Below, piece after piece: positions 61-57,490 of a stretch of DNA of 64,000 bases (positions are counted from its first letter, which is position 1; every line of letters starts with the position of its first letter). The stretch is taken from positions 21,418 to 85,417 of the forward strand of contig JBDRQI010000011.1 in NCBI GenBank assembly GCA_043826355.1, written 5' to 3'. The position numbers and the translations under genes were made by a program. The notes under the pieces are model-generated. The model made no database searches, was not told the DNA's origin, and worked only from the letters and a program-made list of their open reading frames with translations. The stretch is from Candidatus Omnitrophota bacterium (lineage in GTDB: Bacteria; Ratteibacteria; UBA8468; MWAK01).

Positions 61-125
61 GTCTGGACGAGTCGTCAGACTTCGCCGAACTTGGCGAGGT
101 CTGGCCGACCAACCGGCGCAGTTTA
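61..125. repeat. Short modular repeat (GAAGTCTG / GGCCGACC cores) upstream of recA
   Basis: The segment gtctggacga...gtctggccgaccaaccggc shares cores with 27255-27290, and in reverse complement with 33918-33972. Confidence 0.55.
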
Positions 126-160: not shown

Positions 161-1165
161 ATGGAAGATAAGGTGAAGGTCGGATTAGCGGAAGCAATTA
201 AGAATATTGAAAAGGAGTTTGGCAAAGGTGCGATTATGCGACTGGGTGAACGCGTCCACGAAAAAGTTGATGCCATTCCGACCGGTTCCCTTGCTCTTGA
301 TTATGCGTTGGGCGTTGGCGGAATTCCCCGGGGCAGGGTTACGGAAATTTTTGGTCCGGAATCTTCCGGAAAGACCACCCTGGCTTTGCATATCATCGCT
401 GAAGCCCAGAAATTAGGTGGTCAGGTTGCGTTTATAGATGCGGAACACGCCCTTGACCCGGAATATGCCCGGAAAATAGGCGTTAATATCGACGACTTGT
501 TCCTTTCCCAGCCGGATTCCGGCGAACAGGCCCTGGAGATTGCGGACCGGCTGGTCAAGAGCAATGCCATTGACGTAATTGTGGTTGATTCGGTGGCTGC
601 GCTTGTGCCCCGGGCCGAATTGGAAGGAGCGATGGGTGACAGCGTGATGGGTTTGCAGGCGCGGCTTATGAGCCAGGCGCTGCGCAAGATGACCGCAACT
701 ATAAACCGCAGTAAGACCGCGGTTCTCTTTATCAACCAGTTGCGCGAAAAGATAGGTGTCTTTTTCGGCAACCCGGAAACCACTCCCGGCGGCCGCGCTC
801 TTAAATTTTACACCAGCGTCCGCATTGACATCCGGCGCATCGGTTCCATCGAGGGCGAAAAGAATGTCAAAGGCGATAAAAACATAATCGGTAACCATAC
901 GCGGGCCAAAGTAGTCAAAAATAAAGTAGCCCCTCCGTTCCGGGAAGCGCTTTTTGACATCTATTACAACCAGGGGATATCCAAAGAGGGCTCGATTATT
1001 GACATCGGAGTGGACCAAAAGGTTTTGGAAAAGAAGGGAAACTCCTTCTATTACGGCAGTCAGAACATAGGTTTAGGACGGGAGCAGGCGCGGATTTACC
1101 TGAAAGAGCATCAGGAAGTAAGGGATAAGATCGAGGCGGAATTGCGGGCTAAAATAAACCCTTAA
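161..1165 (+). CDS. recA: Recombinase RecA
   Basis: 334-aa ORF colinear with bacterial RecA. Walker [10 protein letters not shown] is present and a ggagg SD lies just upstream. Confidence 0.97.
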
Positions 1166-4303: not shown

Positions 4304-4405
4304 GTCACTTGACAACACTGCCGGAAGTTGCACTTTTTTCGCTTCTTCGGCTAATGGCAGGGAGTCTGTTTTTGCCGGACCTGACGTTATTGCAGGGATG
4401 AGCAT

Positions 4406-4435
4406 TTGACAAGTACTAAATTCAGAAGATAAAAT
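4406..4435 (+). promoter_or_regulatory. Candidate sigma-70 promoter for the LysM/NlpC gene
   Basis: TTGACA at 4406-4411, a 17-18 nt spacer, then ATAAAAT/TAAAAT about 40 nt before the ATG at 4475. Confidence 0.35.
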
Positions 4436-4474
4436 ATAAAGACGAAGTTATTTTTAGTCTACAAATGAGGTGAA

Positions 4475-25549: not shown

Positions 25550-25670
25550 AAGTGGGCGAGACAGGACTTGGCGCCGTTCGGCTTTCACTGCGCCTCAGGT
25601 CGGCCCCCCGCTGGTATTGCTCCTTAATCAGTCGCAATATACCTGACTTCGCTCCTTTCAAGTCCTGTCT
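25550..25670 (-). ncRNA. tRNA-3'-end-associated structured module (copy 2), unknown function
   Basis: A 12-bp inverted repeat (25559-25570 / 25659-25670) closes an 88-nt core homologous to 57142-57225. The distal arm is part of a 21-nt exact copy of the tRNA-Val 3' end. Confidence 0.55.
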
Positions 25671-25686
25671 TCAGGATGCTTAGAAG

Positions 25687-25759
25687 TGGGCGAGACAGGA
25701 CTTGAACCTGTGGCCTTTCGGATGTAAGCCGAATGCTCTGCCAGCTGAGCTACTCGCCC
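25687..25759 (-). tRNA. tRNA-Val (anticodon TAC)
   Basis: Folded by hand into a cloverleaf: acceptor GGGCGAG/CTCGCCC, D stem GCTC/GAGC, anticodon loop CTTACAT, T arm ACAGG-TTCAAGT-CCTGT. CCA is not encoded. Confidence 0.9.
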
Positions 25760-41867: not shown

Positions 41868-43519
41868 CTCAATCTCCATCCCTGCCACGTCGGCACGTAA
41901 GCCCGGCGCCCGCCGGAAAAGCCGGAATAGATATCTTCACCCGGGTCCGCGCCGGTAAAGATGGGATTTATATAGTCCAAAAAGGTTGCGTTGTCCAAAA
42001 ATATTGTGCCGTCAGCCACTAAAACGCCGTTAATATTAGCAGTACAAGTACTGATTGTTATTCCGGAACCGCCGCCAGCTGAATAGACAAGCCCATTAAT
42101 ATTCTGCGTGGTACCAGTAGTTTGAATTGTAATGGTTGCGCTCCCTAAACCCCATCGGTCCATGATCAGGGCGGGTACGTTATAACCGTTGGGTTGTATA
42201 TTGTTGCTCCTGACACCCAGCCATATTGTGCTTTGCGCATAACAGGTTCCCTTGATGTTGGCGCCTCTTAGCGTAATACCATTTTTACCGATAACATAAA
42301 CATCATGATTGGCGTCGCCGATAACACAACCGTTATCCAAAGTGTTATCCATAATAACTGGTCCTTCCGCGAAGAAGTTTGCCAGATAAGGATTTGTGTT
42401 TTCGCCGGCCTGGTTTATCCATATGGTATTATTCGCTTTGATAAGGCCGCCGTTTATCGTTATGCCGAGACCCGTCAGGTTGACATTGTTTCCTTTTACG
42501 CAGACATTGTTGCCGGATTCTATGGTAGGCGTTCCTGAAATATTTACGGTACCGGCGGCGTTGAGAAAGTTGTTGACCGTTGCCTGGTCCCGGAGCTCAA
42601 CATTACCGATAACCTGCGTGTAAGCCTGAATGCTGCTGTTGTCTCGAAACTGGGCGTCTCCATTTATCTGAACATGAAAGCTGATTACGTCGCCGGTTTG
42701 AAACCAGAAGACCGGGCCATTCCAAATTTCGGCTTCAGGCAATGGTCCGGGTCCATCTGGATCGTGATATTGGGGGTATGGGCCGCTCCCGCCGCTTGGG
42801 TCGTCATAGGTATACATTATTGCTTGGGGCGGCGGTTCGTCACCGATAGATTCGAAATAAGCCCGGTTGGGTATAGGCGGTTCGGTAGTGGAAATTTTGG
42901 TCTTTGTCCAATTCCCGGTGGTTGGAAAAGTTGATGCGTTATTAAAATAAACAATATTTCCGTTAATTGTCGCACCGTTTGCGGTGAATAAGTTACAATA
43001 GACCGCGTGCTTATTGAACGCCTCGGATATTCCCTGGGTGGGTCCCTGCCTGATGTTGGTGGTGGAATTATTGCCTCTTAAGGATGTGACAAGGATACGC
43101 CGGATTCCTTTGTGGATGCCAACTGCAACCAGGGTGTCTGGGTAGGAATTATCCTGGATGCCCACGTAATACACCCCCCCTATTTCCGGCAGGCTTCCCA
43201 TTATTCCAGTGGAGAGAAATTCTGAAATTGGAAAAATATCCGTGGGCAGGGTAATCAATTCGGAAGTTTCGAAAGGATTTAATGTTCCGGAAAAGGGATA
43301 ATAATCCGGAGTGTTTTCATAGTTCAGCCGGTAGATGGCGTCGGCTGTTCCGGCTTCAGCCAGGTTCAGGGCGATGGCGGAATTTTTGGCGTATTCGGAC
43401 TGCCGGGAAGTGGCCGCGATTACCCAGAAGAGACTGGCAACCAGCGCCAGGAGGATAAAAGAGGTCAGGAGTGCCACCACCAGCGCCATCCCGCGATTGT
43501 TGTTCATTGTTTTGACCAT
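41864..43519 (-). CDS. Large PilX-N-like pseudopilin with Asn/Gly/Thr-rich beta-helix-like body
   Basis: N-terminal RGMALVVALLTSFILLALVASLF hydrophobic segment, then about 500 aa of repetitive N/G/T/I-rich segments. Confidence 0.62.
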   Translation of the reverse strand: MVKTMNNNRGMALVVALLTSFILLALVASLFWVIAATSRQSEYAKNSAIALNLAEAGTADAIYRLNYENTPDYYPFSGTLNPFETSELITLPTDIFPISEFLSTGIMGSLPEIGGVYYVGIQDNSYPDTLVAVGIHKGIRRILVTSLRGNNSTTNIRQGPTQGISEAFNKHAVYCNLFTANGATINGNIVYFNNASTFPTTGNWTKTKISTTEPPIPNRAYFESIGDEPPPQAIMYTYDDPSGGSGPYPQYHDPDGPGPLPEAEIWNGPVFWFQTGDVISFHVQINGDAQFRDNSSIQAYTQVIGNVELRDQATVNNFLNAAGTVNISGTPTIESGNNVCVKGNNVNLTGLGITINGGLIKANNTIWINQAGENTNPYLANFFAEGPVIMDNTLDNGCVIGDANHDVYVIGKNGITLRGANIKGTCYAQSTIWLGVRSNNIQPNGYNVPALIMDRWGLGSATITIQTTGTTQNINGLVYSAGGGSGITISTCTANINGVLVADGTIFLDNATFLDYINPIFTGADPGEDIYSGFSGGRRAYVPTWQGWRLR

Positions 43520-43528
43520 TCTTTGTTT

Positions 43529-43683
43529 GTCATCCTGAACTGTTAATGATCTGTCACCCTGAACCGATGTTGTGAAGGGTCTCGTATTAAAGGATTAGAT
43601 CCTTCACGGAGTTTACCCTTGAGCAGCGCGAAGGGCTCAGAATGACAAATTACGTCAGATTCTTCACTTTGTTCAGAATGACA
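43529..43683. repeat. Composite gtcatYctgag-family element (copy c5)
   Basis: Same orientation as 36744-36900. About 90% identical to it over the right half, by eye. Confidence 0.85.
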
Positions 43684-43693
43684 AACGAAAGCA

Positions 43694-44329
43694 TTACTGT
43701 ATTCCGGCGTTAAAGATGTAATAGGCGTCATCTCCTTTATCGCCGGCAGGGTTAAAATTTAGGAAATTAGATTGCGCCGCGTTATCCGGGTCGCTTCCGA
43801 TACCATAATTATACTCGCCGTCTCCTCCGGCCGAAATTATGACCATGGCGCCGGTGGCTCCGGCCGGTCTTACCAAAGCATTGGTTGTCCAGAACATCCG
43901 GTAAGGCCTTTTCCAGGGGTCAAGAGGCCGGTAATTTATGTGGTTCTTGTAAGTTGTGTAAGGTCCGGTCCACAAATTCCCTAACTCTGAAGGGAAACCC
44001 GCCGAAGGGGTGTCAATGTCGTCGTTGTCTCCGTCTGTGTAAGTATTTTCAGGAGAGGGTGCGTTCTGCCACGCCCACACCTTCCCCCGCATGGTTGTGG
44101 TGATTTCATTGGTATTTTTTGCCAAATCCTCCAACCGGACATAGTAACCTATTTCGCTGTAGACCTGGGTGATTACGGTTGCCAGGTGCTGCATCTCCGA
44201 GAGGGCGCGGTTGGTCTTTGCCTGTTTCATCGCCCGCAGGACGCCGGGTATCAGGAGCCCGGCCAGGACGGTAATGATGGTGATGACCACCAAAAGTTCA
44301 ATTAGGGTAAAACCGTTCCGATTACGCAT
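43694..44329 (-). CDS. GspG-like major pseudopilin / type IV pilin-like protein
   Basis: MRNRNG|FTLIELLVVITIITVLAGLL with a short leader. DPWKRPY and ISAGGDG motifs as in T2SS G proteins. Confidence 0.83.
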   Translation of the reverse strand: MRNRNGFTLIELLVVITIITVLAGLLIPGVLRAMKQAKTNRALSEMQHLATVITQVYSEIGYYVRLEDLAKNTNEITTTMRGKVWAWQNAPSPENTYTDGDNDDIDTPSAGFPSELGNLWTGPYTTYKNHINYRPLDPWKRPYRMFWTTNALVRPAGATGAMVIISAGGDGEYNYGIGSDPDNAAQSNFLNFNPAGDKGDDAYYIFNAGIQ

Positions 44330-44351
44330 TTTAGGCCTCCGATTTTTTCAT

Positions 44352-44446
44352 GTCATTCTGAGTGAAACGAAGAATCTAATCTTTTAAAGACGAGATCCTT
44401 CGCAAGCACGGCTCAGGATGACATATTATTAACGGCTCAGGATGAC
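44352..44446. repeat. gtcattctgag-family repeats
   Basis: gtcattctgagtgaaacgaagaatc...ggctcaggatgac, with the latter unit repeated twice. Confidence 0.8.
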
Positions 44447-44457
44447 ATATGTTAAGA

Positions 44458-44919
44458 TTACAACCTGCAAATAAAGAGAGCTATCAATATAAAGTATACT
44501 GCCTGAAAGCGGAAAAGTAAAATTTCCTGAGAACGGGTGGCAGCCGGTCCGAGGCGGCTTAAACGGCTGCCCAAAATCTTTCGGTCTATCCCCGCTATCA
44601 TCTCCGGCTTGAAAAAGAGAGCGGTTCCCGTCGCAATCGAGAGGAGGAGCAAAATTAGACGGATAACGTTTAACGTTGGTTCCAGACTGAAGGAGAAGAA
44701 AGGGATGAAGAGGAAAAATAAAAATAATGTCGCAAGGAGTGAAAGACGGGATTGCCGTGCTCCCCCCCACTTCGCCTCCCCCGCCAGGGGGGAGGTATGA
44801 CGGTTACAATGACTATGTAAAATATTCAGGGTTGCCGGGACCAAGCTTTCCGGCAACTTTTCCTCCCGGATTTCTCCGGCCAGCCTGATAATCTCTCTTT
44901 CCAGTTCGTTTGTGTCCAT
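44458..44919 (-). CDS. Hypothetical membrane protein
   Basis: 153-aa ORF with 2-3 hydrophobic helices. It contains a PSP-type repeat in frame (SPLAGEAKWGG). No recognisable family. Confidence 0.4.
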   Translation of the reverse strand: MDTNELEREIIRLAGEIREEKLPESLVPATLNILHSHCNRHTSPLAGEAKWGGARQSRLSLLATLFLFFLFIPFFSFSLEPTLNVIRLILLLLSIATGTALFFKPEMIAGIDRKILGSRLSRLGPAATRSQEILLFRFQAVYFILIALFICRL

Positions 44920-44932
44920 TCTTTTAAGGTGT

Positions 44933-44963
44933 GGATTCCCGATCTAAGCATTCGGGAATGACA
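44933..44963. repeat. 'attcccg...cgggaat' hairpin repeat
   Basis: ggattcccgatctaagcattcgggaatgaca. Confidence 0.75.
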
Positions 44964-45027
44964 TCGTGTGTTTGGTCCTCTATACATTTAGTACCGTTTT
45001 CCGCGAAAAAGGTTCATTCAGTTGATA

Positions 45028-45055
45028 GATTCCCGCTTACCACACGCGGGAATGA
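45028..45055. repeat. 'attcccgc...gcgggaat' hairpin repeat
   Basis: agattcccgcttaccacacgcgggaatgat, abutting the frr stop. Confidence 0.75.
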
Positions 45056-45059
45056 TGTT

Positions 45060-45611
45060 TCATTCCAGAATCTCTTTTTCTTTAGCGGACAGGAGGCGGT
45101 CTATCTCCGCGATGGAATGGTCGGTCAGTTTCTGGACTTCGTTGATGCCGTGGTGCATATCGTCCTCGGAAATCTCTTTTTCCTTCTCGGATTTTTTCAA
45201 TTCTTCGTTGGCTTTATGGCGAACCTCCCGGATTTCCACGCGGCCCTGTTCCGCAATTTTGTGGGCAACCTTGACAACCTCCCTGCGGCGTTCTTCGCTT
45301 AAGGGCGGAATCGGCACCCGGACTCCGGTTGCGTCGGAAATGGGATTTAGGCCCAGGTTGGACGCAAGGATGGCTTTGGAGATTTCACCGGCCAGGGACT
45401 TATCCCAGGGCTGAACCATAATCAGGTTCGGCTGCGGTGTGGTGAGGGTGGCAACCTGGTTGAGGGGAAGGCGGGAGTTATACGCCGCAACAGTGATGCC
45501 GTCCAAAAGGCTGACGTTTGCCCGCGACGCTCGCAACGATGCGTATTCGTGCTTGATGAAATCCAGAATTTTGCGCATATTGCTTTCCGCTTTTTTTACC
45601 TTTTCTCTCAT
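45060..45611 (-). CDS. frr: Ribosome recycling factor
   Basis: 183 aa colinear with Frr (LDGITVAAYNS...PLNQVA...IPPLSEERR). Confidence 0.96.
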   Translation of the reverse strand: MREKVKKAESNMRKILDFIKHEYASLRASRANVSLLDGITVAAYNSRLPLNQVATLTTPQPNLIMVQPWDKSLAGEISKAILASNLGLNPISDATGVRVPIPPLSEERRREVVKVAHKIAEQGRVEIREVRHKANEELKKSEKEKEISEDDMHHGINEVQKLTDHSIAEIDRLLSAKEKEILE

Positions 45612-45642
45612 AAAATTTCCTCCACTACGTTAACGGAACCAT

Positions 45643-45798
45643 TTGTCATTCTGAGCGGTAGCGAAGAATCTGACGTAATTTGTCATCCTGAACCCTTCGC
45701 GTTGCTCAAGGGTAAACTCCGTGAAGGATCTAATCTTTTAAGACGAGATCCTTCGTTTCACTCAGGATGACAGATTCTTAAAGGCTCAGGATGACACC
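45643..45798. repeat. 156-nt composite gtcatYctgag-family element (copy c7)
   Basis: Near-identical inverted copy of 36744-36900. Confidence 0.9.
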
Positions 45799-45805
45799 AT
45801 AATAA

Positions 45806-46516
45806 CTACGAAATTAAGGTGCCGATGTCGGCGCCGCCCAGAACTTTTTTCAGGTTTCCGGTTCGGAAAAGGTTAAAGACGATGATGGGAATCTTGTTCT
45901 CCCGGCACAGGGCGATGGCGGTTGCATCCATTATGTTCAGGTCGTTCTTGAGTACTTCCCCAAAAGAAAGGCGCTGGTACCGCGTGGCTTTCTTTACCTT
46001 TTTGGGGTCAGCCGAGTAAACACCGTCCACCTTGGTTCCTTTCAGGATAATCTGGGCCCGGATTTCAATGGCGCGCAAGGCCGCCGCAGTATCGGTGGTG
46101 AAGTAAGGGCTGCCGGTCCCGCCGGCAAAGATAACCAGCCGGCCTTTTTCCAGGTGCCTAATCGCCCGGCGCCTGATGTATGGTTCCGCCAACTGCTTCA
46201 TTTCCAGGGCGGTTTGAAGCCGCGTGGAAACCCCCAGTCGCTCCATGACAGATTGCAGGGCAAGGCCGTTGATGACCGTTGCCACCATTCCCATGTAATC
46301 GGCGGTTGTTTTATCGATGCCATCTTTACTTACCACCGCGCCCCGGAAAAGGTTTCCGGCGCCCACCACCACGGCCAGCTGGGCGCCCTGGCCGATTGCG
46401 GATTTCAATTCTTCGCCTAATTTTTGCAGGGGTTTTGGTTCAATCCCGAACGCGTCTTCTCCGGAAAATGCCTCGCCGGAAATCTTTACCAGTATCCGCT
46501 GATATCTATTTTTCAT
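45806..46516 (-). CDS. pyrH: UMP kinase
   Basis: ILVKISGEA N-terminus, GAGNLFRG and GGTGSPYFTTD motifs. Confidence 0.96.
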   Translation of the reverse strand: MKNRYQRILVKISGEAFSGEDAFGIEPKPLQKLGEELKSAIGQGAQLAVVVGAGNLFRGAVVSKDGIDKTTADYMGMVATVINGLALQSVMERLGVSTRLQTALEMKQLAEPYIRRRAIRHLEKGRLVIFAGGTGSPYFTTDTAAALRAIEIRAQIILKGTKVDGVYSADPKKVKKATRYQRLSFGEVLKNDLNIMDATAIALCRENKIPIIVFNLFRTGNLKKVLGGADIGTLIS

Positions 46517-46573
46517 AGATTCCCACCGTTAAATACGGGCGACCCTAAAAGGGCCGCGCTACGTTTATGTTAT

Positions 46574-46603
46574 GGATTCCCGCCTGATACATGCGGGAAT
46601 GAT
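46574..46603. repeat. 'attcccgc...gcgggaat' hairpin repeat
   Basis: ggattcccgcctgatacatgcgggaatgat. Confidence 0.75.
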
Positions 46604-46636
46604 ATTAAGTGTTACACACAGTAATGACAAAATGCG

Positions 46637-48145
46637 TCACTTGATTCTGGGAAAGAGGGGAGGGGCCTCGGTTACGATTGCGCCCGGCTTCGTAAGACCC
46701 CAGGTCAACGCTTCCTTTCCAGCCGGCAGGTCCGTCAACCCCAATTGTTGGCGGATAAGCACCGCGGTGCGGGGCAGGACCGGTTCCAGATAGATGCTTA
46801 AAATACGGCTTGTTTCGGTCAGATTGTAAAGGACCGAACCGGAATTGGGGCCCTTTCGCCAGGGCGATTCCTCGTCCAGATAGTGGTTTCCGGCGCTGAT
46901 AACTTCACGCAAAGTTTCCAGGAAACCGAAAAAATCAAGGCTTTCCATTTTAGGCGCCAGCGCCGGAAAAAGTTCCGCTGTTTTCCGGGCCAGAATTCCG
47001 CCGTCGCCGGGAGGCGGAACCTTGCCTCCAAAATTTGTTCGCATCAGGTGGTTGAAGCGGTGGACGAGATTTCCCAGGTCATTGGCCAAGTCGCTGTTGT
47101 ATCGTTTTCGAAAAGCTTCTTCCGTAAAGTTTCCGTCCATCCCGAAAGGCACTTCTGCCAGGAGAAAATAACGGAGCGCTTCGGAACCGTATCTGCGGCA
47201 GAAATCAAACGGTTCCACCACGTTGCCTTTCGATTTACTCATCTTTTCGTTGCCGGAAAGCCACCAGCCGTGAGCAAAAACTTTCTTGGGAAGCGGCAGG
47301 TTGAGCGCCATTAGAATTGCGGGCCAGATGATGTGGTGAAAGCGGATGATATCCTTGCCGACCAGTTGAACGTCAGGCGGCCAGAAACGCTTGAAAGATT
47401 TACTCTGGTCTGCTCCGGCCGGAGAAAGCGGGTTATAGTTGACGCCGGAAAGATAGTTGAGCAGGGCGTCAAACCAGACGTAAATGGTAAGCCCGGAACC
47501 GGCAACACCCTTCGGCAGCGGCACTCCCCAGCGGCAGCGCCGGGTCAGAGAAAGGTCCGGCAGGGGGTCGGAGAGCATGTTGGTTACCTCATCGCGAATG
47601 CGTTCCGGCTGGATAAATTCCGGGTTTTTCAGAAAGTGTTCTTTAATCCTTTCCTGGTAACGGGAGAGCCGGAAGAAATAGGTTTCTTCGGATAGTTTTT
47701 CGGTGGGACGGCCGCAGTCCGCGCAGTCTATTCCTTCGGCCGGGACGAGATAACGTTCGCAGGGTACGCAGTAATGGCCTTCGTAAACGCCGGGGTAGAT
47801 GTCGCCGTTGCGTTGCAGGGCGGAAAAGATTGATTGGATAGTTTTTTGGTGTTCCGTTTCGGTGGTCCGGATAAAACGGTCGAACTTAATTTCCAGCAAC
47901 TTCCATAAATCAAGGTAGCGCCCAACGGTTTGGTCCACCAATTCCCCGGGGGAAAGGCCGGCCTGGTCCGCGGCCGCGGCAACCTTGCTGCCGTGTTCGT
48001 CGGCGCCGGTGAGGAAGAAGACCTCTTTTCCCAGAAATCTTTCCCACCGGGCCAGGACATCGGCTGCCACCGTGGTGTAAACATGCCCGACGTGCGGCCG
48101 GGCGTTAACATAATAAATTGGAGTGGTCAGGTAATATTTATCCAT
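46637..48145 (-). CDS. metG: Methionyl-tRNA synthetase (short form)
   Basis: PHVGHVYT (HIGH-type) and KMSKSKGN motifs, plus a zinc knuckle CVPCERY...CADCG. Confidence 0.96.
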   Translation of the reverse strand: MDKYYLTTPIYYVNARPHVGHVYTTVAADVLARWERFLGKEVFFLTGADEHGSKVAAAADQAGLSPGELVDQTVGRYLDLWKLLEIKFDRFIRTTETEHQKTIQSIFSALQRNGDIYPGVYEGHYCVPCERYLVPAEGIDCADCGRPTEKLSEETYFFRLSRYQERIKEHFLKNPEFIQPERIRDEVTNMLSDPLPDLSLTRRCRWGVPLPKGVAGSGLTIYVWFDALLNYLSGVNYNPLSPAGADQSKSFKRFWPPDVQLVGKDIIRFHHIIWPAILMALNLPLPKKVFAHGWWLSGNEKMSKSKGNVVEPFDFCRRYGSEALRYFLLAEVPFGMDGNFTEEAFRKRYNSDLANDLGNLVHRFNHLMRTNFGGKVPPPGDGGILARKTAELFPALAPKMESLDFFGFLETLREVISAGNHYLDEESPWRKGPNSGSVLYNLTETSRILSIYLEPVLPRTAVLIRQQLGLTDLPAGKEALTWGLTKPGAIVTEAPPLFPRIK

Positions 48146-57046: not shown

Positions 57047-57118
57047 GGCGGTGTAGCTCAGCGGTAGAGCAAGCGGCTCATACCCGCTATGTCTGGGGTT
57101 CGAATCCCCGCACCGCCA
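57047..57118 (+). tRNA. tRNA-Met-type (anticodon CAT; elongator Met or Ile2, not distinguishable here)
   Basis: Cloverleaf folded by hand: GGCGGTG/CACCGCC acceptor, GCTC/GAGC D stem, anticodon loop CTCATAC, T arm TGGGG-TTCGAAT-CCCCG. CCA is not encoded. Confidence 0.9.
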
Positions 57119-57132
57119 CATTGTAAGATTAC

Positions 57133-57243
57133 TGGGATTCGAAGAGAGCGAAGTCAGGAGCTGCGACGAGAAGGAGCAGCGACAGCGAATGGCCGACCCG
57201 AGGCGCAGTGAAAGCCGAGCGGCGCCGAATCCCCGCACCGCCA
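57133..57243 (+). ncRNA. tRNA-3'-end-associated structured module (copy 1), unknown function
   Basis: tgggattcg pairs with cgaatccc. The 84-nt core is homologous to that of the tRNA-Val locus. The module ends in an exact 18-nt copy of the tRNA-Met 3' end (57226-57243 = 57101-57118). Confidence 0.55.
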
Positions 57244-57314
57244 TATAAAAGTATAGTGAATAGTGAACGGTAAAAAATTTTAAGTATTAAATTAATTAGT
57301 TTTTCTTCAAGAGA

Positions 57315-57481
57315 GGTTTGTTTTTTTTGCAACACTTCGCGGAGTGACAGCAACAAAACAAGCAGTACGACGGCATGAGTAGCCGTGGCTCACCCGAATT
57401 TAGGGTGAGAACACGGAGAGTCTCATGACGGAGTTGCGTAGTTTTGTCTGGCACGCAGCGTGTGTTGCAAAAAAAACAACC
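57315..57481 (+). ncRNA. ~160-nt extended hairpin element, copy A (upstream of dnaX)
   Basis: The terminal inverted repeat ggtttgttttttttgcaacac / gtgttgcaaaaaaaacaacc encloses arms colinear with 34773-34936 (reverse complement). Confidence 0.6.
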
Positions 57482-57490
57482 GAACGCCCT

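What the first reader, a model, noticed from the sequence alone, without database searches (positions are those of the whole stretch)
25550..25704. Second copy of the tRNA-linked module at tRNA-Val shows compensatory changes in two helices and a conserved AAGGA-containing loop
Seen in the sequence, read on the minus strand. tRNA-Val (25759-25687) is followed by a spacer, agacaggacttg (25670-25659), an 88-nt core, then caagtcctgtctcgcccactt (25570-25550). That last segment exactly repeats the last 18 nt of the tRNA plus 3 downstream nt (25704-25684). The proximal arm is a perfect 12-nt reverse complement of the distal arm. It is not a direct copy of the T-arm 5' strand (ACAGGTTCAAG), so the closing stem is a genuine inverted repeat of tRNA 3' sequence. 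Inside the core, the only variable segment folds in both copies into a hairpin with different stem sequences: tattgc/gcaata here (25615-25639) and gctgc/gcagc at 57160-57180. The loop stays similar, gacTGATTaagga versus gacGAGaagga, followed by gca. Two helices thus covary between loci while flanking single-stranded blocks are conserved. That pattern is expected of a selected RNA or ssDNA fold rather than of decaying junk. AAGGAG is also Shine-Dalgarno-like, but no start codon is conserved after it.
Basis: partly seen in the sequence, partly recalled or inferred. Interest (0 to 1): 0.72.

Follow-up and report, generated by a model that had tools for sequence, protein, structure and literature searches.

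The report
Small mobile module behind tRNA genes
Both tRNA genes in this window are followed by a roughly 135-base structured insert that carries a second copy of the tRNA's tail; it comes and goes between related uncultivated bacteria and matches no described RNA family or mobile element.

Summary
Both tRNA genes in the window (Val, Met) are followed on the same strand by four parts: a spacer; an 8-12-nt arm that is the reverse complement of tRNA positions 56-63/67; an 84-88-nt conserved core; and a second copy of the tRNA from C56 of the T-loop to position 73-76.

I found 12 complete and 5 truncated copies at nine or more different tRNA or pseudo-tRNA sites in Ratteibacteria/Omnitrophota assemblies. 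Nothing matched in Rfam, phage, plasmid or viral collections.

Relatives with the same tRNA-Val-rpmA and tRNA-Met-dnaX loci have empty sites, remnants or mosaic variants. The module is therefore a dispensable insertion polymorphism that leaves the tRNA intact.

Two internal helices covary (95.6% of cells paired; 0/500 shuffles reach this). Each carries a conserved tandem G.A motif that makes sense only on the tRNA-sense strand. The closing-stem "covariation" is by construction, and AAGGA is not conserved.

Formally the module equals a single-crossover insertion of a ~130-nt unit at T55|C56. My best reading is a non-autonomous element that homes to tRNA T-loops. Its fold, as read-through RNA or as single-stranded DNA, would be the substrate of an unknown trans-acting enzyme. 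The enzyme, and how the arm comes to match each tRNA, remain unresolved.

The parts
25686..25759 (-). tRNA-Val(TAC), intact; a promoter-like site lies just upstream (25805-25778)
   Evidence: ARAGORN; Rfam 73.6 bits; promoter scan
25684..25704 (-). X1: tRNA positions C56-A73 plus CTT; this is the proximal copy of the 21-nt direct repeat
   Evidence: D1 (100% identity with 25550-25570)
25671..25685 (-). Spacer S (ttctaagcatcctga). It contains TCCTG, a third short copy of T-stem 3' strand positions 60-64, which can pair with the arm
   Evidence: Read directly. Orthologous spacers are in L046 and L048
25657..25670 (-). Arm X' (agacaggacttg plus aa), the reverse complement of tRNA positions 56-67 (54-67 if the aa is included). 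It forms the 5' strand of closing helix P1
   Evidence: I1 and I2
25571..25658 (-). Conserved 88-nt core (type 1): 5' single-stranded block GGAGCGAAGUCA, helix P2, junction CAGCGGGGGG, helices P4/P3
   Evidence: (126.4 bits)
25613..25643 (-). P2 hairpin: covarying stem, tandem G.A pairs, 1-2 Watson-Crick pairs, GANNA loop
   Evidence: 6 of 9 pairs have double changes
25572..25602 (-). P4/P3 hairpin: CG.CC(U)-GA-GGC, loop GCAGUGAAA, GCC-GA-(A)C-GGCG. This copy has the U75-A95 variant pair
25550..25570 (-). X2: distal copy of tRNA positions 56-73 plus CTT. Its first 12 nt form the 3' strand of P1; its tail is the acceptor 3' strand
   Evidence: D1 and I2
57047..57119 (+). tRNA-Met(CAT), intact. 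X1 is 57101-57118(-57121)
57120..57133 (+). Spacer S, type 2 (attgtaagattact)
   Evidence: Orthologous spacers are in L031, L044 and L045
57134..57143 (+). Arm X' (gggattcg plus aa), the reverse complement of tRNA-Met positions 56-63 (54-63 if the aa is included)
   Evidence: I1 and I3
57142..57225 (+). Conserved 84-nt core (type 2). P2 is 57157-57183 and P4/P3 is 57194-57224. It is 83/84 identical to the core beside a pseudo-tRNA in a Ratteibacteria MAG (L021/L024)
   Evidence: 124.3 bits
57226..57246 (+). X2: distal copy of tRNA-Met positions 56-73 (20/21 identical if extended to position 76)
   Evidence: D1

Best explanation
The module is one member of a family of small (about 110-135 bp), non-coding, non-autonomous mobile elements that live directly behind tRNA genes in a Ratteibacteria/Omnitrophota clade.

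Shown:
- The integrated form is tRNA(1-55) - X1(56 to about 74-76) - spacer - arm X' (reverse complement of 55/56-63..67) - 85-nt core - X2(56 to about 74-76) - flank.
- The duplication always starts at C56 of the T-loop.
- The tRNA stays intact.
- The site can be empty, filled, remnant-bearing or doubly filled in related genomes.
- On the tRNA-sense strand, arm + core + X2 fold into a three-way junction (P1 closing stem, P2, P4/P3). Its internal helices are kept by compensatory changes.

Inferred:
- This arrangement is what a single-crossover insertion of a ~130-nt unit [X - spacer - X' - core] at T55|C56 would give. That is attL/attR with the tRNA 3' end as the common core, as for T-loop-class tRNA integrases.
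- Recombination between X1 and X2 then gives precise loss. Insertion next to a remnant gives the 51-nt repeat seen in L051.
- A unit this small cannot easily act as duplex DNA. The arm recreates, by intramolecular pairing, a double-stranded copy of the target sequence. I therefore propose that the active form is single-stranded: either single-stranded DNA, or the read-through RNA made from the tRNA promoter.
- The conserved fold would be the recognition or recombination substrate of an enzyme supplied in trans. The closest analogies are the folded attC of integron cassettes and the folded attP of CTX phage.
- Cores are further shuffled between copies by recombination.

The enzyme, the nature of the intermediate (DNA or RNA), and the way the arm becomes matched to a new tRNA are not shown.
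For: Architecture. The same layout occurs in 12 complete copies at tRNA-Val, Met (five lineages), Leu, Ser, Gly and Arg, at one tRNA masked by Ns, and at two pseudo-tRNAs. The covariance-model scores are 109-133 bits.

Insertion polymorphism.
- tRNA-Val-rpmA is empty in L025/26/27 (neighbouring phosphoglucomutase, PGM, 92% identical), L047 (91%) and L028 (73%, same tRNA 3' end). It holds a remnant in L046 and L048/49 and is filled in the window.
- tRNA-Met-dnaX is filled in the window, L031, L044, L045 and L051, and empty in L029/30 and L032.

Mobility and exchange.
- The window's Met core is 83/84 identical to the L021 core, which sits at a different site in a genome whose DnaX is 73% identical.
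- Cores at the Met locus are mosaic.
- Tandem full-plus-truncated arrays occur in L031, L024 and L051.
- X2 follows the diverged acceptor stem of tRNA-Met in L051.

Fold.
- For P2 plus P4/P3, 95.6% of cells are paired, 8 pairs have double changes, and 0/500 shuffles reach the observed score. Slid-partner controls give 26-58% paired.
- Conserved tandem G.A motifs and GNRA-like loops are meaningful only on the tRNA-sense strand.

Transcription and novelty.
- There is a promoter-like site upstream of tRNA-Val. For tRNA-Met the scan found none, but a TTGTGT...TATAAT motif conserved in L029, L031 and L032 lies upstream (read directly). No terminator-like site lies between either tRNA and the downstream gene.
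- There is no Rfam family at E<=10. There is no phage, plasmid or viral match.
Against: - No recombinase, transposase or reverse transcriptase lies next to any copy. No longer, gene-carrying version was found.
- A site-specific integrase normally has one tRNA target. Here one core family sits at nine or more different tRNA or pseudo-tRNA sites, each with a matched arm and a matched duplicate. The single-crossover model does not explain this by itself.
- Copies at the tRNA-Met locus persist across lineages with 58-77% DnaX identity and keep their fold. X2's unpaired tail stays identical to the tRNA. Both could equally mean a host-level RNA function.
- G.U versus A.C counts (8 versus 7) do not by themselves fix the folding strand.
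- Single-sequence folding z-scores are modest (-1.2 to -2.0).
- Only about 17 copies from a handful of assemblies were sampled.
Confidence: 0.5

Rival explanations
1. The module is a host-useful structured RNA made from the tRNA 3' trailer. It is co-transcribed with the tRNA and folds into the three-way junction. It then acts in one of three ways:
- as a switch on maturation of its own tRNA, because the arm can pair with the tRNA's own 3' half, with a short spacer copy (X0), or with the decoy X2;
- as a tRNA-3'-half mimic or sponge;
- as a 5' stabiliser for the downstream rpmA or dnaX message.

Its spread would be secondary.
For: - Internal helices are maintained by compensatory changes, even among copies at the same locus in different genera.
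- X2, including its unpaired acceptor-strand tail, stays identical to the tRNA: 0-1 difference in 19 nt, against 2-5 in 14 nt for the spacer. It also tracks tRNA divergence in L051.
- There are three alternative partners for the arm.
- The full-transcript minimum-free-energy fold for Val uses arm:X1 plus 5'-acceptor:X2.
- No terminator separates the tRNA, the module and the downstream gene.
Against: - The module is dispensable. Empty sites and deletion remnants occur in close relatives.
- Copies sit beside dead pseudo-tRNAs.
- A near-identical core occurs at unrelated sites in different genera.
- Mosaicism and tandem partial copies are typical of selfish repeats.
- A host function gives no mechanism for building a matched arm and duplicate at each new tRNA.
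Confidence: 0.25
2. The element moves through RNA, either as a retroelement or with the core acting as a ribozyme. The read-through transcript, or a form cleaved at T55|C56 and at core|C56, is the intermediate. The arm is an internal guide that pairs with tRNA positions 56-67.

Insertion would be by target-primed copying at a nick in the T-loop, or by reverse splicing followed by reverse transcription. In effect this would be an 'optional intron' of the T-loop that brings its own spare 3' exon and so never needs to be spliced.
For: - The left boundary is fixed at C56 and the right boundary of the duplication varies: 73-78 in most copies, and 51 nt in L051. This resembles a precise first nick followed by an imprecise second nick or terminal redundancy.
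- The three-way-junction topology has a single unpaired nucleotide (C) between P4 and the P1 3' strand, just before C56. That is the topology of a hammerhead cleavage site.
- An element-borne segment is complementary to the target, as with group II intron EBS sequences or IS110 bridge RNAs.
- RNA-type motifs are present (tandem G.A, GNRA-like loops).
Against: - No ribozyme family matches, even at E<=10. The hammerhead core CUGANGA / GAA / NUH is absent (read directly).
- The duplicated segment carries genomic trailer bases (CTT, CTC, CAT) rather than CCA, so it was copied from DNA or from the primary transcript.
- No reverse transcriptase gene was seen.
- Truncated copies lack the 3' end, not the 5' end. 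That pattern is explained more simply by deletions bounded by the tRNA and the next essential gene.
Confidence: 0.17
3. The modules are decayed attachment-site scars: an attL and attR pair left by ordinary tRNA-integrating prophages or islands, or else a chance or assembly artefact.
For: Direct repeats running from the T-loop to the tRNA 3' end are the classic footprint of T-loop-class integrases (established knowledge). Some copies are truncated.
Against: - The same 85-nt core, with the same boundaries, occurs at nine or more tRNA or pseudo-tRNA sites in several assemblies from different samples.
- The internal helices show compensatory evolution.
- The arm is matched to each tRNA.
- There is no integrase fragment or other island remnant.
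- The 19-nt core block has a chance expectation of 0.01 per window.
Confidence: 0.04

Closest known systems
tRNA-gene integrating elements of the T-loop sublocation class (P4-like tyrosine integrases; attL/attR identity block from the T-loop to the tRNA 3' end)
   Same: The direct repeat begins in the T-loop and runs to the tRNA's 3' end. The element-side copy restores the tRNA. Precise empty sites exist. Formally it is a single-crossover (Campbell) insertion.
   Different: - The whole insert is about 110-135 bp and has no integrase or any other gene.
- One core family occupies nine or more different tRNA or pseudo-tRNA sites.
- It contains an inverted copy of the identity block and a covarying structured core.
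Folded single-strand recombination sites: integron cassette attC (R''-L''...L'-R') and CTX-phage attP(+)
   Same: - The linear order matches: target-type sequence, short interior, inverse copy, structured centre, then target sequence supplied by the next site.
- The double-stranded site is recreated by intramolecular pairing.
- Structure is conserved through compensatory change.
- The unit is small and gene-free, and arrays or tandems occur.
   Different: - The target is a tRNA T-loop, not attI or dif.
- The GTTRRRY core site is not present (the T-loop is GTTCRAN).
- The central sequence is strongly conserved, unlike in attC.
- No IntI or Xer link is shown.
MITEs and other small non-autonomous prokaryotic repeats (PATEs of IS200/IS605, REP/BIME, Correia elements)
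   Same: It is short, non-coding, multi-copy and structured, polymorphic between relatives, and presumably mobilised in trans.
   Different: - It has no terminal inverted repeats.
- The duplication is 18-23 bp with a fixed left end and a variable right end.
- It is strictly associated with tRNA 3' ends, always on the tRNA strand.
Elements that carry a nucleic-acid guide to their target (group II intron EBS/IBS, IS110/IS1111 bridge or seek RNA, TnpB/IscB omega RNA)
   Same: An internal 8-14-nt segment is complementary to the target next to the insertion point. It lies between conserved scaffold sequences and differs from copy to copy according to the site.
   Different: - There is no associated protein gene.
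- The sizes and the Rfam models do not match.
- Those systems do not duplicate 19 or more bp of target.
- Here the guide pairs with a copy of the target held within the same molecule.
tRNA 3' external transcribed spacer RNAs (for example 3'ETS-leuZ of E. coli)
   Same: It lies in the tRNA trailer and would be released from the tRNA precursor.
   Different: Those RNAs are single-locus, unstructured sponges. They are not mobile and do not copy the tRNA.

Membership tests
Any Rfam 15 family (including hammerhead, HDV-like, twister, pistol and hatchet ribozymes, SRP, tmRNA, Y-RNA-like, omega RNAs, attC-type motifs) | Covariance-model match at or near the family's gathering score | tested here: not met
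   Only tRNA passes the gathering threshold. At E<=10 the module regions give only weak hits (12-25 bits; the two strongest lie on the tRNA genes themselves), all far below their gathering scores.
Hammerhead ribozyme | Three-way junction with CUGANGA between stems I and II, GAA between stems II and III, and NUH at the cleavage site | tested here: not met
   The topology is similar (one unpaired C before the P1 3' strand). The junctions, however, read A(A/U)RGRGAGCGAAGUCA and CAGCGRRKGG, and the triplet is CGC.
tRNA-integrating genomic island or prophage (T-loop class) | Direct repeats of the tRNA 3' part flank the insert | tested here: met
   Repeats of 18-23 nt starting at C56 occur in all complete copies.
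tRNA-integrating genomic island or prophage (T-loop class) | An integrase gene and kilobases of cargo lie between the repeats | tested here: not met
   The insert is 104-115 bp with no ORF. Flanking genes are housekeeping.
Integron attC site | R''/R' core sites RYYYAAC / GTTRRRY, with crossover at G|TT | tested here: not met
   The junction is T55|C56 and the sequence is GTTC(R)A... The distal junction reads GGCGC|C and lacks TT.
Integron attC site | Imperfect inverted repeat that folds as a single strand, with structure conserved rather than sequence | tested here: inconclusive
   The fold and its covariation are present. The central sequence, however, is highly conserved, and no test separates DNA from RNA folding.
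Integron attC site | Association with intI, attI or cassette arrays | not tested
   Whole genomes were not available. None was seen in the loci fetched.
MITE | Terminal inverted repeats and a fixed-length target-site duplication | tested here: not met
   The ends (TTGTAAG... / ...GGCGC) are not inverted repeats. The duplication is 18-23 bp, and 51 bp in L051.
MITE | Short, non-coding, multi-copy, with presence/absence polymorphism | tested here: met
Guide-RNA elements (IS110 bridge RNA, group II intron) | A cognate recombinase or reverse transcriptase is encoded in the same element | tested here: not met
   No ORF lies in or beside any copy.
Functional structured RNA (generic) | Helices supported by compensatory substitutions beyond what shuffled and slid controls give | tested here: met
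   For P2 plus P4/P3, 95.6% of cells are paired, the covariation score is 0.385 against 0.192 for shuffles (0/500 reach it), and slid controls score 0.11 or less.
Functional structured RNA (generic) | Evidence of transcription and of a defined RNA product | not testable with these tools
   Only indirect evidence is available: a promoter-like site upstream of tRNA-Val, a conserved TTGTGT...TATAAT motif read directly upstream of tRNA-Met (the scan itself found none), and no terminator-like site before rpmA or dnaX.

The most novel reading that the evidence does not exclude
The module may be a new kind of nucleic-acid-guided, target-templated mobile element. Its 85-nt core would be a catalytic or enzyme-recruiting three-way-junction RNA (or single-stranded DNA). 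It would cut and join exactly at T55|C56 of tRNA T-loops, guided by the arm.

The arm and the duplicate would be rewritten from the target at insertion. The result would be a T-loop 'optional intron' that carries its own spare 3' exon and can therefore colonise any tRNA gene without harming it.
Probability: 0.15. Interest if true: 0.9.

Novelty: new variant of a known kind. Interest (0 to 1): 0.7.

Why it matters
tRNA 3' ends are the commonest landing sites for prokaryotic mobile DNA, but every known occupant brings its own integrase. Here a gene-free, roughly 130-nt unit occupies many different tRNA genes. It keeps each tRNA intact by carrying a copy of its tail, and it holds a conserved covarying fold that includes a target-matched arm.

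If the fold is the substrate of a trans-acting recombinase, this is the smallest tRNA-homing element described, and a natural example of a folded, target-mimicking attachment site outside integrons and CTX-type phages. If it acts as RNA, it is either a new structured RNA class tied to tRNA maturation or a new guide or ribozyme system.

Either way it makes a concrete question testable in an almost unstudied clade (Ratteibacteria/Omnitrophota): how does an element become matched to a new tRNA? It is also a caution for annotation, because duplicated tRNA 3' ends and pseudo-tRNAs in these genomes can be by-products of this element.

Tried and rejected
1. Known RNA families. The Rfam gathering scan of the whole window, plus three permissive scans (two of the modules, one of the dnaX-upstream region), found nothing.
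2. Viral origin. Two exact-motif scans of IMG/VR gave only chance hits, which I inspected and scored with the covariance model.
3. Phage and plasmid collections. A distant blastn search gave no match.
4. Recovering more copies through spurious ORFs. A chimeric query made from core translations in five reading frames, run against 5.8 billion proteins, found nothing.
5. Source record. The window's phosphoglucomutase (PGM) is not in the contig index.
6. Enzyme next to the element. Pfam on 10 window ORFs, ORF lists and the pre-computed Pfam tables of fetched loci show housekeeping genes next to every copy.
7. Shine-Dalgarno or small-ORF reading of AAGGAG. Rejected, because the motif is not conserved and no start codon follows.
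8. SRP-RNA-like reading of GUCAGG...GAAGGAGCAGC. Rejected, because there is no Rfam support.
9. Group II intron domain V, HDV-like and hammerhead threading by eye. The junction sequences do not fit.
10. G.U versus A.C asymmetry as a test of which strand folds. Indecisive at 8 versus 7.
11. Exact insertion boundaries from empty sites. The flanks are too diverged to align base by base.
12. Literature.
13. Complementarity between the core and the tRNA-Val anticodon arm (I3). Judged to be chance, because that core block is the same at all tRNAs.
Full report
**1. The observation**

The window has two tRNA genes: Val(TAC) at 25686-25759 (minus strand) and Met(CAT) at 57047-57119 (plus strand). Read on the tRNA strand, each is followed by the same arrangement:
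- a 14-15-nt spacer (S);
- an arm (X');
- an 84-88-nt conserved core;
- a second copy (X2) of the tRNA's 3' part.

At tRNA-Val the direct repeat is 21/21 (25684-25704 = 25550-25570). The arm 25659-25670 is 12/12 complementary to the start of X2. It is 14/14 complementary to the tRNA itself, because it is followed by AA opposite T54-T55.

At tRNA-Met the repeat is 20/21 (57101-57121 / 57226-57246) and the arm is 8 nt (10 nt against the tRNA).

The 19-nt core block GAGGCGCAGTGAAAGCCGA occurs exactly twice in 64 kb, against 0.01 expected.

**2. More copies elsewhere**

One exact-pattern scan of the GTDB representative genomes gave five true copies among 17 hits: three in an 'Omnitrophota' MAG from Lac Pavin and two in a Ratteibacteria MAG. 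The metagenome scan added a tRNA-Gly copy.

A covariance model built from nine copies then found further copies in loci I fetched through homologues of the neighbouring genes. These sit at tRNA-Arg (L029), at tRNA-Met in L031, L044, L045 and L051, and as partial copies.

In total there are 12 complete copies (11 score 109-133 bits; the expanded L045 copy scores 58) and 5 truncated ones. The sites are tRNA-Val, Met, Leu, Ser, Gly and Arg, one tRNA masked by Ns, and two decayed pseudo-tRNAs.

In every copy:
- the duplication starts exactly at C56 of the T-loop, just after the universal GGTT;
- the arm is the reverse complement of the local tRNA from position 55/56 to position 63-67;
- the orientation is that of the tRNA.

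The right end of the duplication varies from position 73 to 78. Positions 75-76 match in 12 of 24 cells, by my count. The duplicated bases beyond position 73 are genomic trailer bases (CTT, CTC, CAT), not CCA. The copy was therefore taken from DNA or from the primary transcript, not from mature tRNA.

**3. The module is an insertion, and a dispensable one**

The window organism is related to Ratteibacteria/'Omnitrophota' MAGs. Gene order around both tRNAs is conserved in relatives, which gave natural controls.

tRNA-Val-rpmA locus, ordered by identity of the neighbouring phosphoglucomutase (PGM) to the window's:

| Locus | PGM identity | State |
|---|---|---|
| L025/26/27 | 92% | empty |
| L047 | 91% | empty |
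| L028 | 73% | empty; tRNA 3' end identical to the window's |
| L046 | 87% | spacer plus arm only; core, X2 and about 70 nt of flank deleted |
| L048/49 | 72% | spacer, arm and a truncated variant core |

tRNA-Met-dnaX locus:
- The site is empty in L029/30 and L032.
- It is filled in the window, L031, L044, L045 and L051.

All remnants lack the 3' part. Three of them (L046, L048 and the second copy in L051) end close to the start of the next gene. This is what deletions would look like if they were limited on one side by the tRNA and on the other by an essential gene.

Two complete copies lie beside pseudo-tRNAs. The module is thus gained and lost without killing the tRNA, and it is not an obligatory part of tRNA genes.

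**4. Signs of activity and exchange**

- The window's Met-locus core is 83/84 identical to the core at a pseudo-tRNA-Leu site in a genome whose DnaX is only 73% identical. Spacer, arm and duplicate are all different.
- At the tRNA-Met locus the cores are mosaics. L031 and L044 share an identical 5' half (0/40 differences) but differ at 7/33 positions in the 3' half. L044 and L045 share an identical 3' half but have different 5' halves.
- Three loci have a full copy followed by a truncated second copy. In L031 the two belong to different subtypes, which indicates independent insertions.
- In L051 the direct repeat is 51 nt (X-spacer-arm-AAGAGA). This is what recombination between an incoming unit and a resident remnant would give.
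- In L051 the tRNA-Met acceptor stem has diverged, and X2 carries the same changes.

**5. The fold**

On the tRNA-sense strand, arm + core + X2 form a three-way junction.

- **P1** is the arm paired with X2. Its 'covariation' is automatic and I do not count it as evidence.
- **P2** has at least five different stems: GGTATTGC/GCAATACC, GGCGACGC/GCGTTGCC, GATGACGC/GCGTCATC, GATAACGC/GCGTTATT and GCTGC/GCAGC. A longer version occurs in L045 and L048, with GATGC/GCAT in one against GGTGC/GCACC in the other.
- Inside the P2 stem come an invariant G-A / G-A pair of mismatches, then one or two Watson-Crick pairs that also covary (C-G to U-A), then a GANNA loop.
- **P4/P3** is mostly invariant. It nevertheless shows C-G to U.G to U-A at pair 75-95, G-C to C-G (L044, L045) or G.U (L031) at pair 78-92, and a variable bulge.
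- P4/P3 also contains a G-A / G-A tandem.

For the two internal helices alone:
- 95.6% of 204 cells are standard pairs;
- 8 of 17 pairs have double changes;
- 0/500 column shuffles reach the observed covariation score;
- sliding the partners gives 26-58% paired.

Wobble counts do not fix the strand (8 G.U against 7 A.C). The conserved tandem G.A motifs would be C/T mismatches on the other strand, so the tRNA-sense strand is the one that folds. This is inference.

It is not conserved as a Shine-Dalgarno sequence.

Two purine-rich single-stranded blocks (GGAGCGAAGUCA and CAGCGRRKGG) are conserved and remain unexplained.

**6. Transcription context**

tRNA-Val has a promoter-like site just upstream. 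The scan found none for tRNA-Met, but a TTGTGT...TATAAT motif conserved in L029, L031 and L032 lies upstream (read directly). No terminator-like site lies between either tRNA and rpmA or dnaX. The tRNA-gene adjacency is ancestral. The module should therefore be transcribed as part of the tRNA trailer; this is inferred, not shown.

Folding the whole tRNA-plus-module transcript shows two nearly equivalent global folds:
- cloverleaf plus P1, which is the minimum-free-energy fold for Met;
- arm paired with the tRNA's own 3' half, and the tRNA's 5' acceptor strand paired with the X2 tail, which is the minimum-free-energy fold for Val.

Type-1 spacers also carry a third short copy of the T-stem 3' strand that can pair with the arm. 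I read these directly in W_Val, L010, L016, L022 and L048.

**7. What it is**

The structure tRNA(1-55)-X-S-X'-core-X-flank is formally the product of one crossover between a roughly 130-nt unit [X-S-X'-core] and the tRNA gene at or after C56. That is attL/attR with the tRNA 3' end as the common core. This is the known pattern for integrases that use the T-loop sublocation (established knowledge).

This reading explains several features:
- the fixed left boundary and the variable right boundary of identity;
- the intact tRNA;
- precise empty sites, through recombination between X1 and X2;
- the tandem copies;
- the 51-nt repeat in L051.

The insert has no gene, and a circle of this size is awkward as duplex DNA. 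It does contain an inverted copy of the target that pairs with the target-type sequence across a conserved structured centre. This is the logic of integron attC sites and of the folded attP of CTX phage.

My best explanation is therefore a non-autonomous mini-element that homes to tRNA T-loops. Its folded single-stranded form, DNA or read-through RNA, would be the substrate of a trans-acting enzyme (confidence about 0.5). I put about 0.85 on 'mobile, structured, non-coding element' and about 0.3 on the folded-att mechanism specifically.

**8. What this does not explain**

- No enzyme candidate was found beside any copy (and the locus gene tables).
- It is unclear how an arm and a duplicate become matched to a new tRNA.
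- Core identity at different sites can be explained by horizontal transfer plus gene conversion, given the mosaicism. First colonisation of a new tRNA still needs X' and X2 to be templated on the target.
- The arms of different tRNAs differ at only 1-4 of their first 8 positions, because the T-loop and T-stem are conserved. Mismatch-tolerant insertion followed by hairpin-templated (quasi-palindrome) correction is therefore conceivable. The arm's complementarity extends to T55/T54, that is, to the tRNA context rather than the X2 context, which fits templating on the tRNA. This is speculation.

**9. Rivals**

- **A host-useful trailer RNA (0.25).** This would be a switch on tRNA maturation, a tRNA-3'-half mimic or an mRNA 5' stabiliser. 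It is favoured by the long persistence and structural maintenance at the tRNA-Met locus, and by the conservation of X2's unpaired tail. It is disfavoured by dispensability, remnants, pseudo-tRNA neighbours and mosaicism.
- **An RNA-mediated or ribozyme element (0.17).** It is favoured by the fixed-left, variable-right duplication and by the hammerhead-like topology, with a single unpaired C before C56. It has no family match, no CCA in the copies and no reverse transcriptase.
- **Scars of ordinary islands, or chance (0.04).** This is excluded by the repeated precise architecture and by the covariation.

**10. Comparison with known families, and novelty**

The module fails the membership tests for:
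- every Rfam family;
- integron attC (no GTTRRRY, different crossover point);
- MITEs (no terminal inverted repeats, variable duplication);
- integrase-bearing islands (no gene);
- guide-RNA elements (no cognate protein).

It works most like a cassette or attC-type unit, or like a miniature tRNA-integrating element. I found no description in the literature searched. I rate it a new variant of a known kind: a small non-autonomous site-specific element combined with a structured nucleic acid. There is a real chance that it is something categorically new.

**11. Limits**

- Only about 17 copies from a few assemblies were available.
- The genome and metagenome scans used exact motifs, so divergent copies were missed. 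The L029 copy was found only later, by the model.
- All MAG-level inferences assume correct binning.
- No expression data were available.

Noticed in passing
window 57325-57490 (+); also L029 9796-10005 and L045 1336-1525: A roughly 170-nt rod-like hairpin lies between the tRNA-Met module and dnaX, and it is conserved in relatives. RNAalifold predicts 60 pairs, 11 with compensatory changes. It overlaps the first ATG of the long dnaX ORF; the database form of DnaX starts about 22 codons later. There is no Rfam hit at E<=10. It is a candidate unannotated ncRNA or leader. The position is where ffs (SRP RNA) often lies, but that identity is not shown.
   Followed up: partly
window 43500-46700; L028 11380-12140; L006, L013, L016: Families of short palindromic intergenic repeats (TGTCATTCTGAG...GAAGAATC and GGATTCCCGC...GCGGGAATGA) lie between small genes (frr, pyrH, pilin-like). 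They are shared with the 'Omnitrophota' loci and are very dense in L028.
   Followed up: partly
L025 5335-5409, L047 about 4372-4447, compared with window 25686-25759: In the close relatives that lack the module, the 3' half of tRNA-Val (T-arm and acceptor 3' strand) differs from the window's and from each other. L025 even has an A6.C67 mismatch. Module-bearing or remnant lineages, and also L028, share one sequence. Possible causes are replacement by recombination, or homogenisation by the extra copies.
   Followed up: no
L022 about 455-540 (minus strand): The distal tRNA copy (X2) of the tRNA-Gly module is split after CGAA, inside the T-loop copy, by a roughly 75-nt insert with an 8-bp inverted repeat (CCCTGCCA / TGGCAGGG). 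It may be a second small element that also targets T-loop sequence.
   Followed up: no
L045 1113-1269; L048 4543-4629: A third core subtype has a longer P2 and an extra hairpin (GGGCGG/CCGCCC) inserted after P2, and it lacks the GAAGUCAGG block. This shows that the P2 side of the core tolerates insertions, so it is a possible cargo site.
   Followed up: partly
L010/L023 and L021/L024: In the Ratteibacteria MAG two modules lie next to decayed pseudo-tRNAs. One is a 5'-truncated Leu(CAA)-like sequence. The other keeps only GGTTC and the last 10 nt. In L010, X2 ends in a full CCA followed by AAAA.
   Followed up: partly
L051 9818-9995: A 51-nt perfect direct repeat (tRNA 3' end + spacer + arm + AAGAGA) flanks the rest of the core. 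The second copy runs straight into the dnaX start codon.
   Followed up: yes
window 25577-25587 and 25723-25733: The core segment UGAAAGCCGAA is 10/11 complementary to the anticodon arm of tRNA-Val. This is probably chance, because the block is the same at all tRNAs.
   Followed up: partly
L028 11658-11954: A GIY-YIG nuclease ORF, surrounded by palindromic repeats, is inserted between tRNA-Val and rpmA at an otherwise empty site.
   Followed up: no
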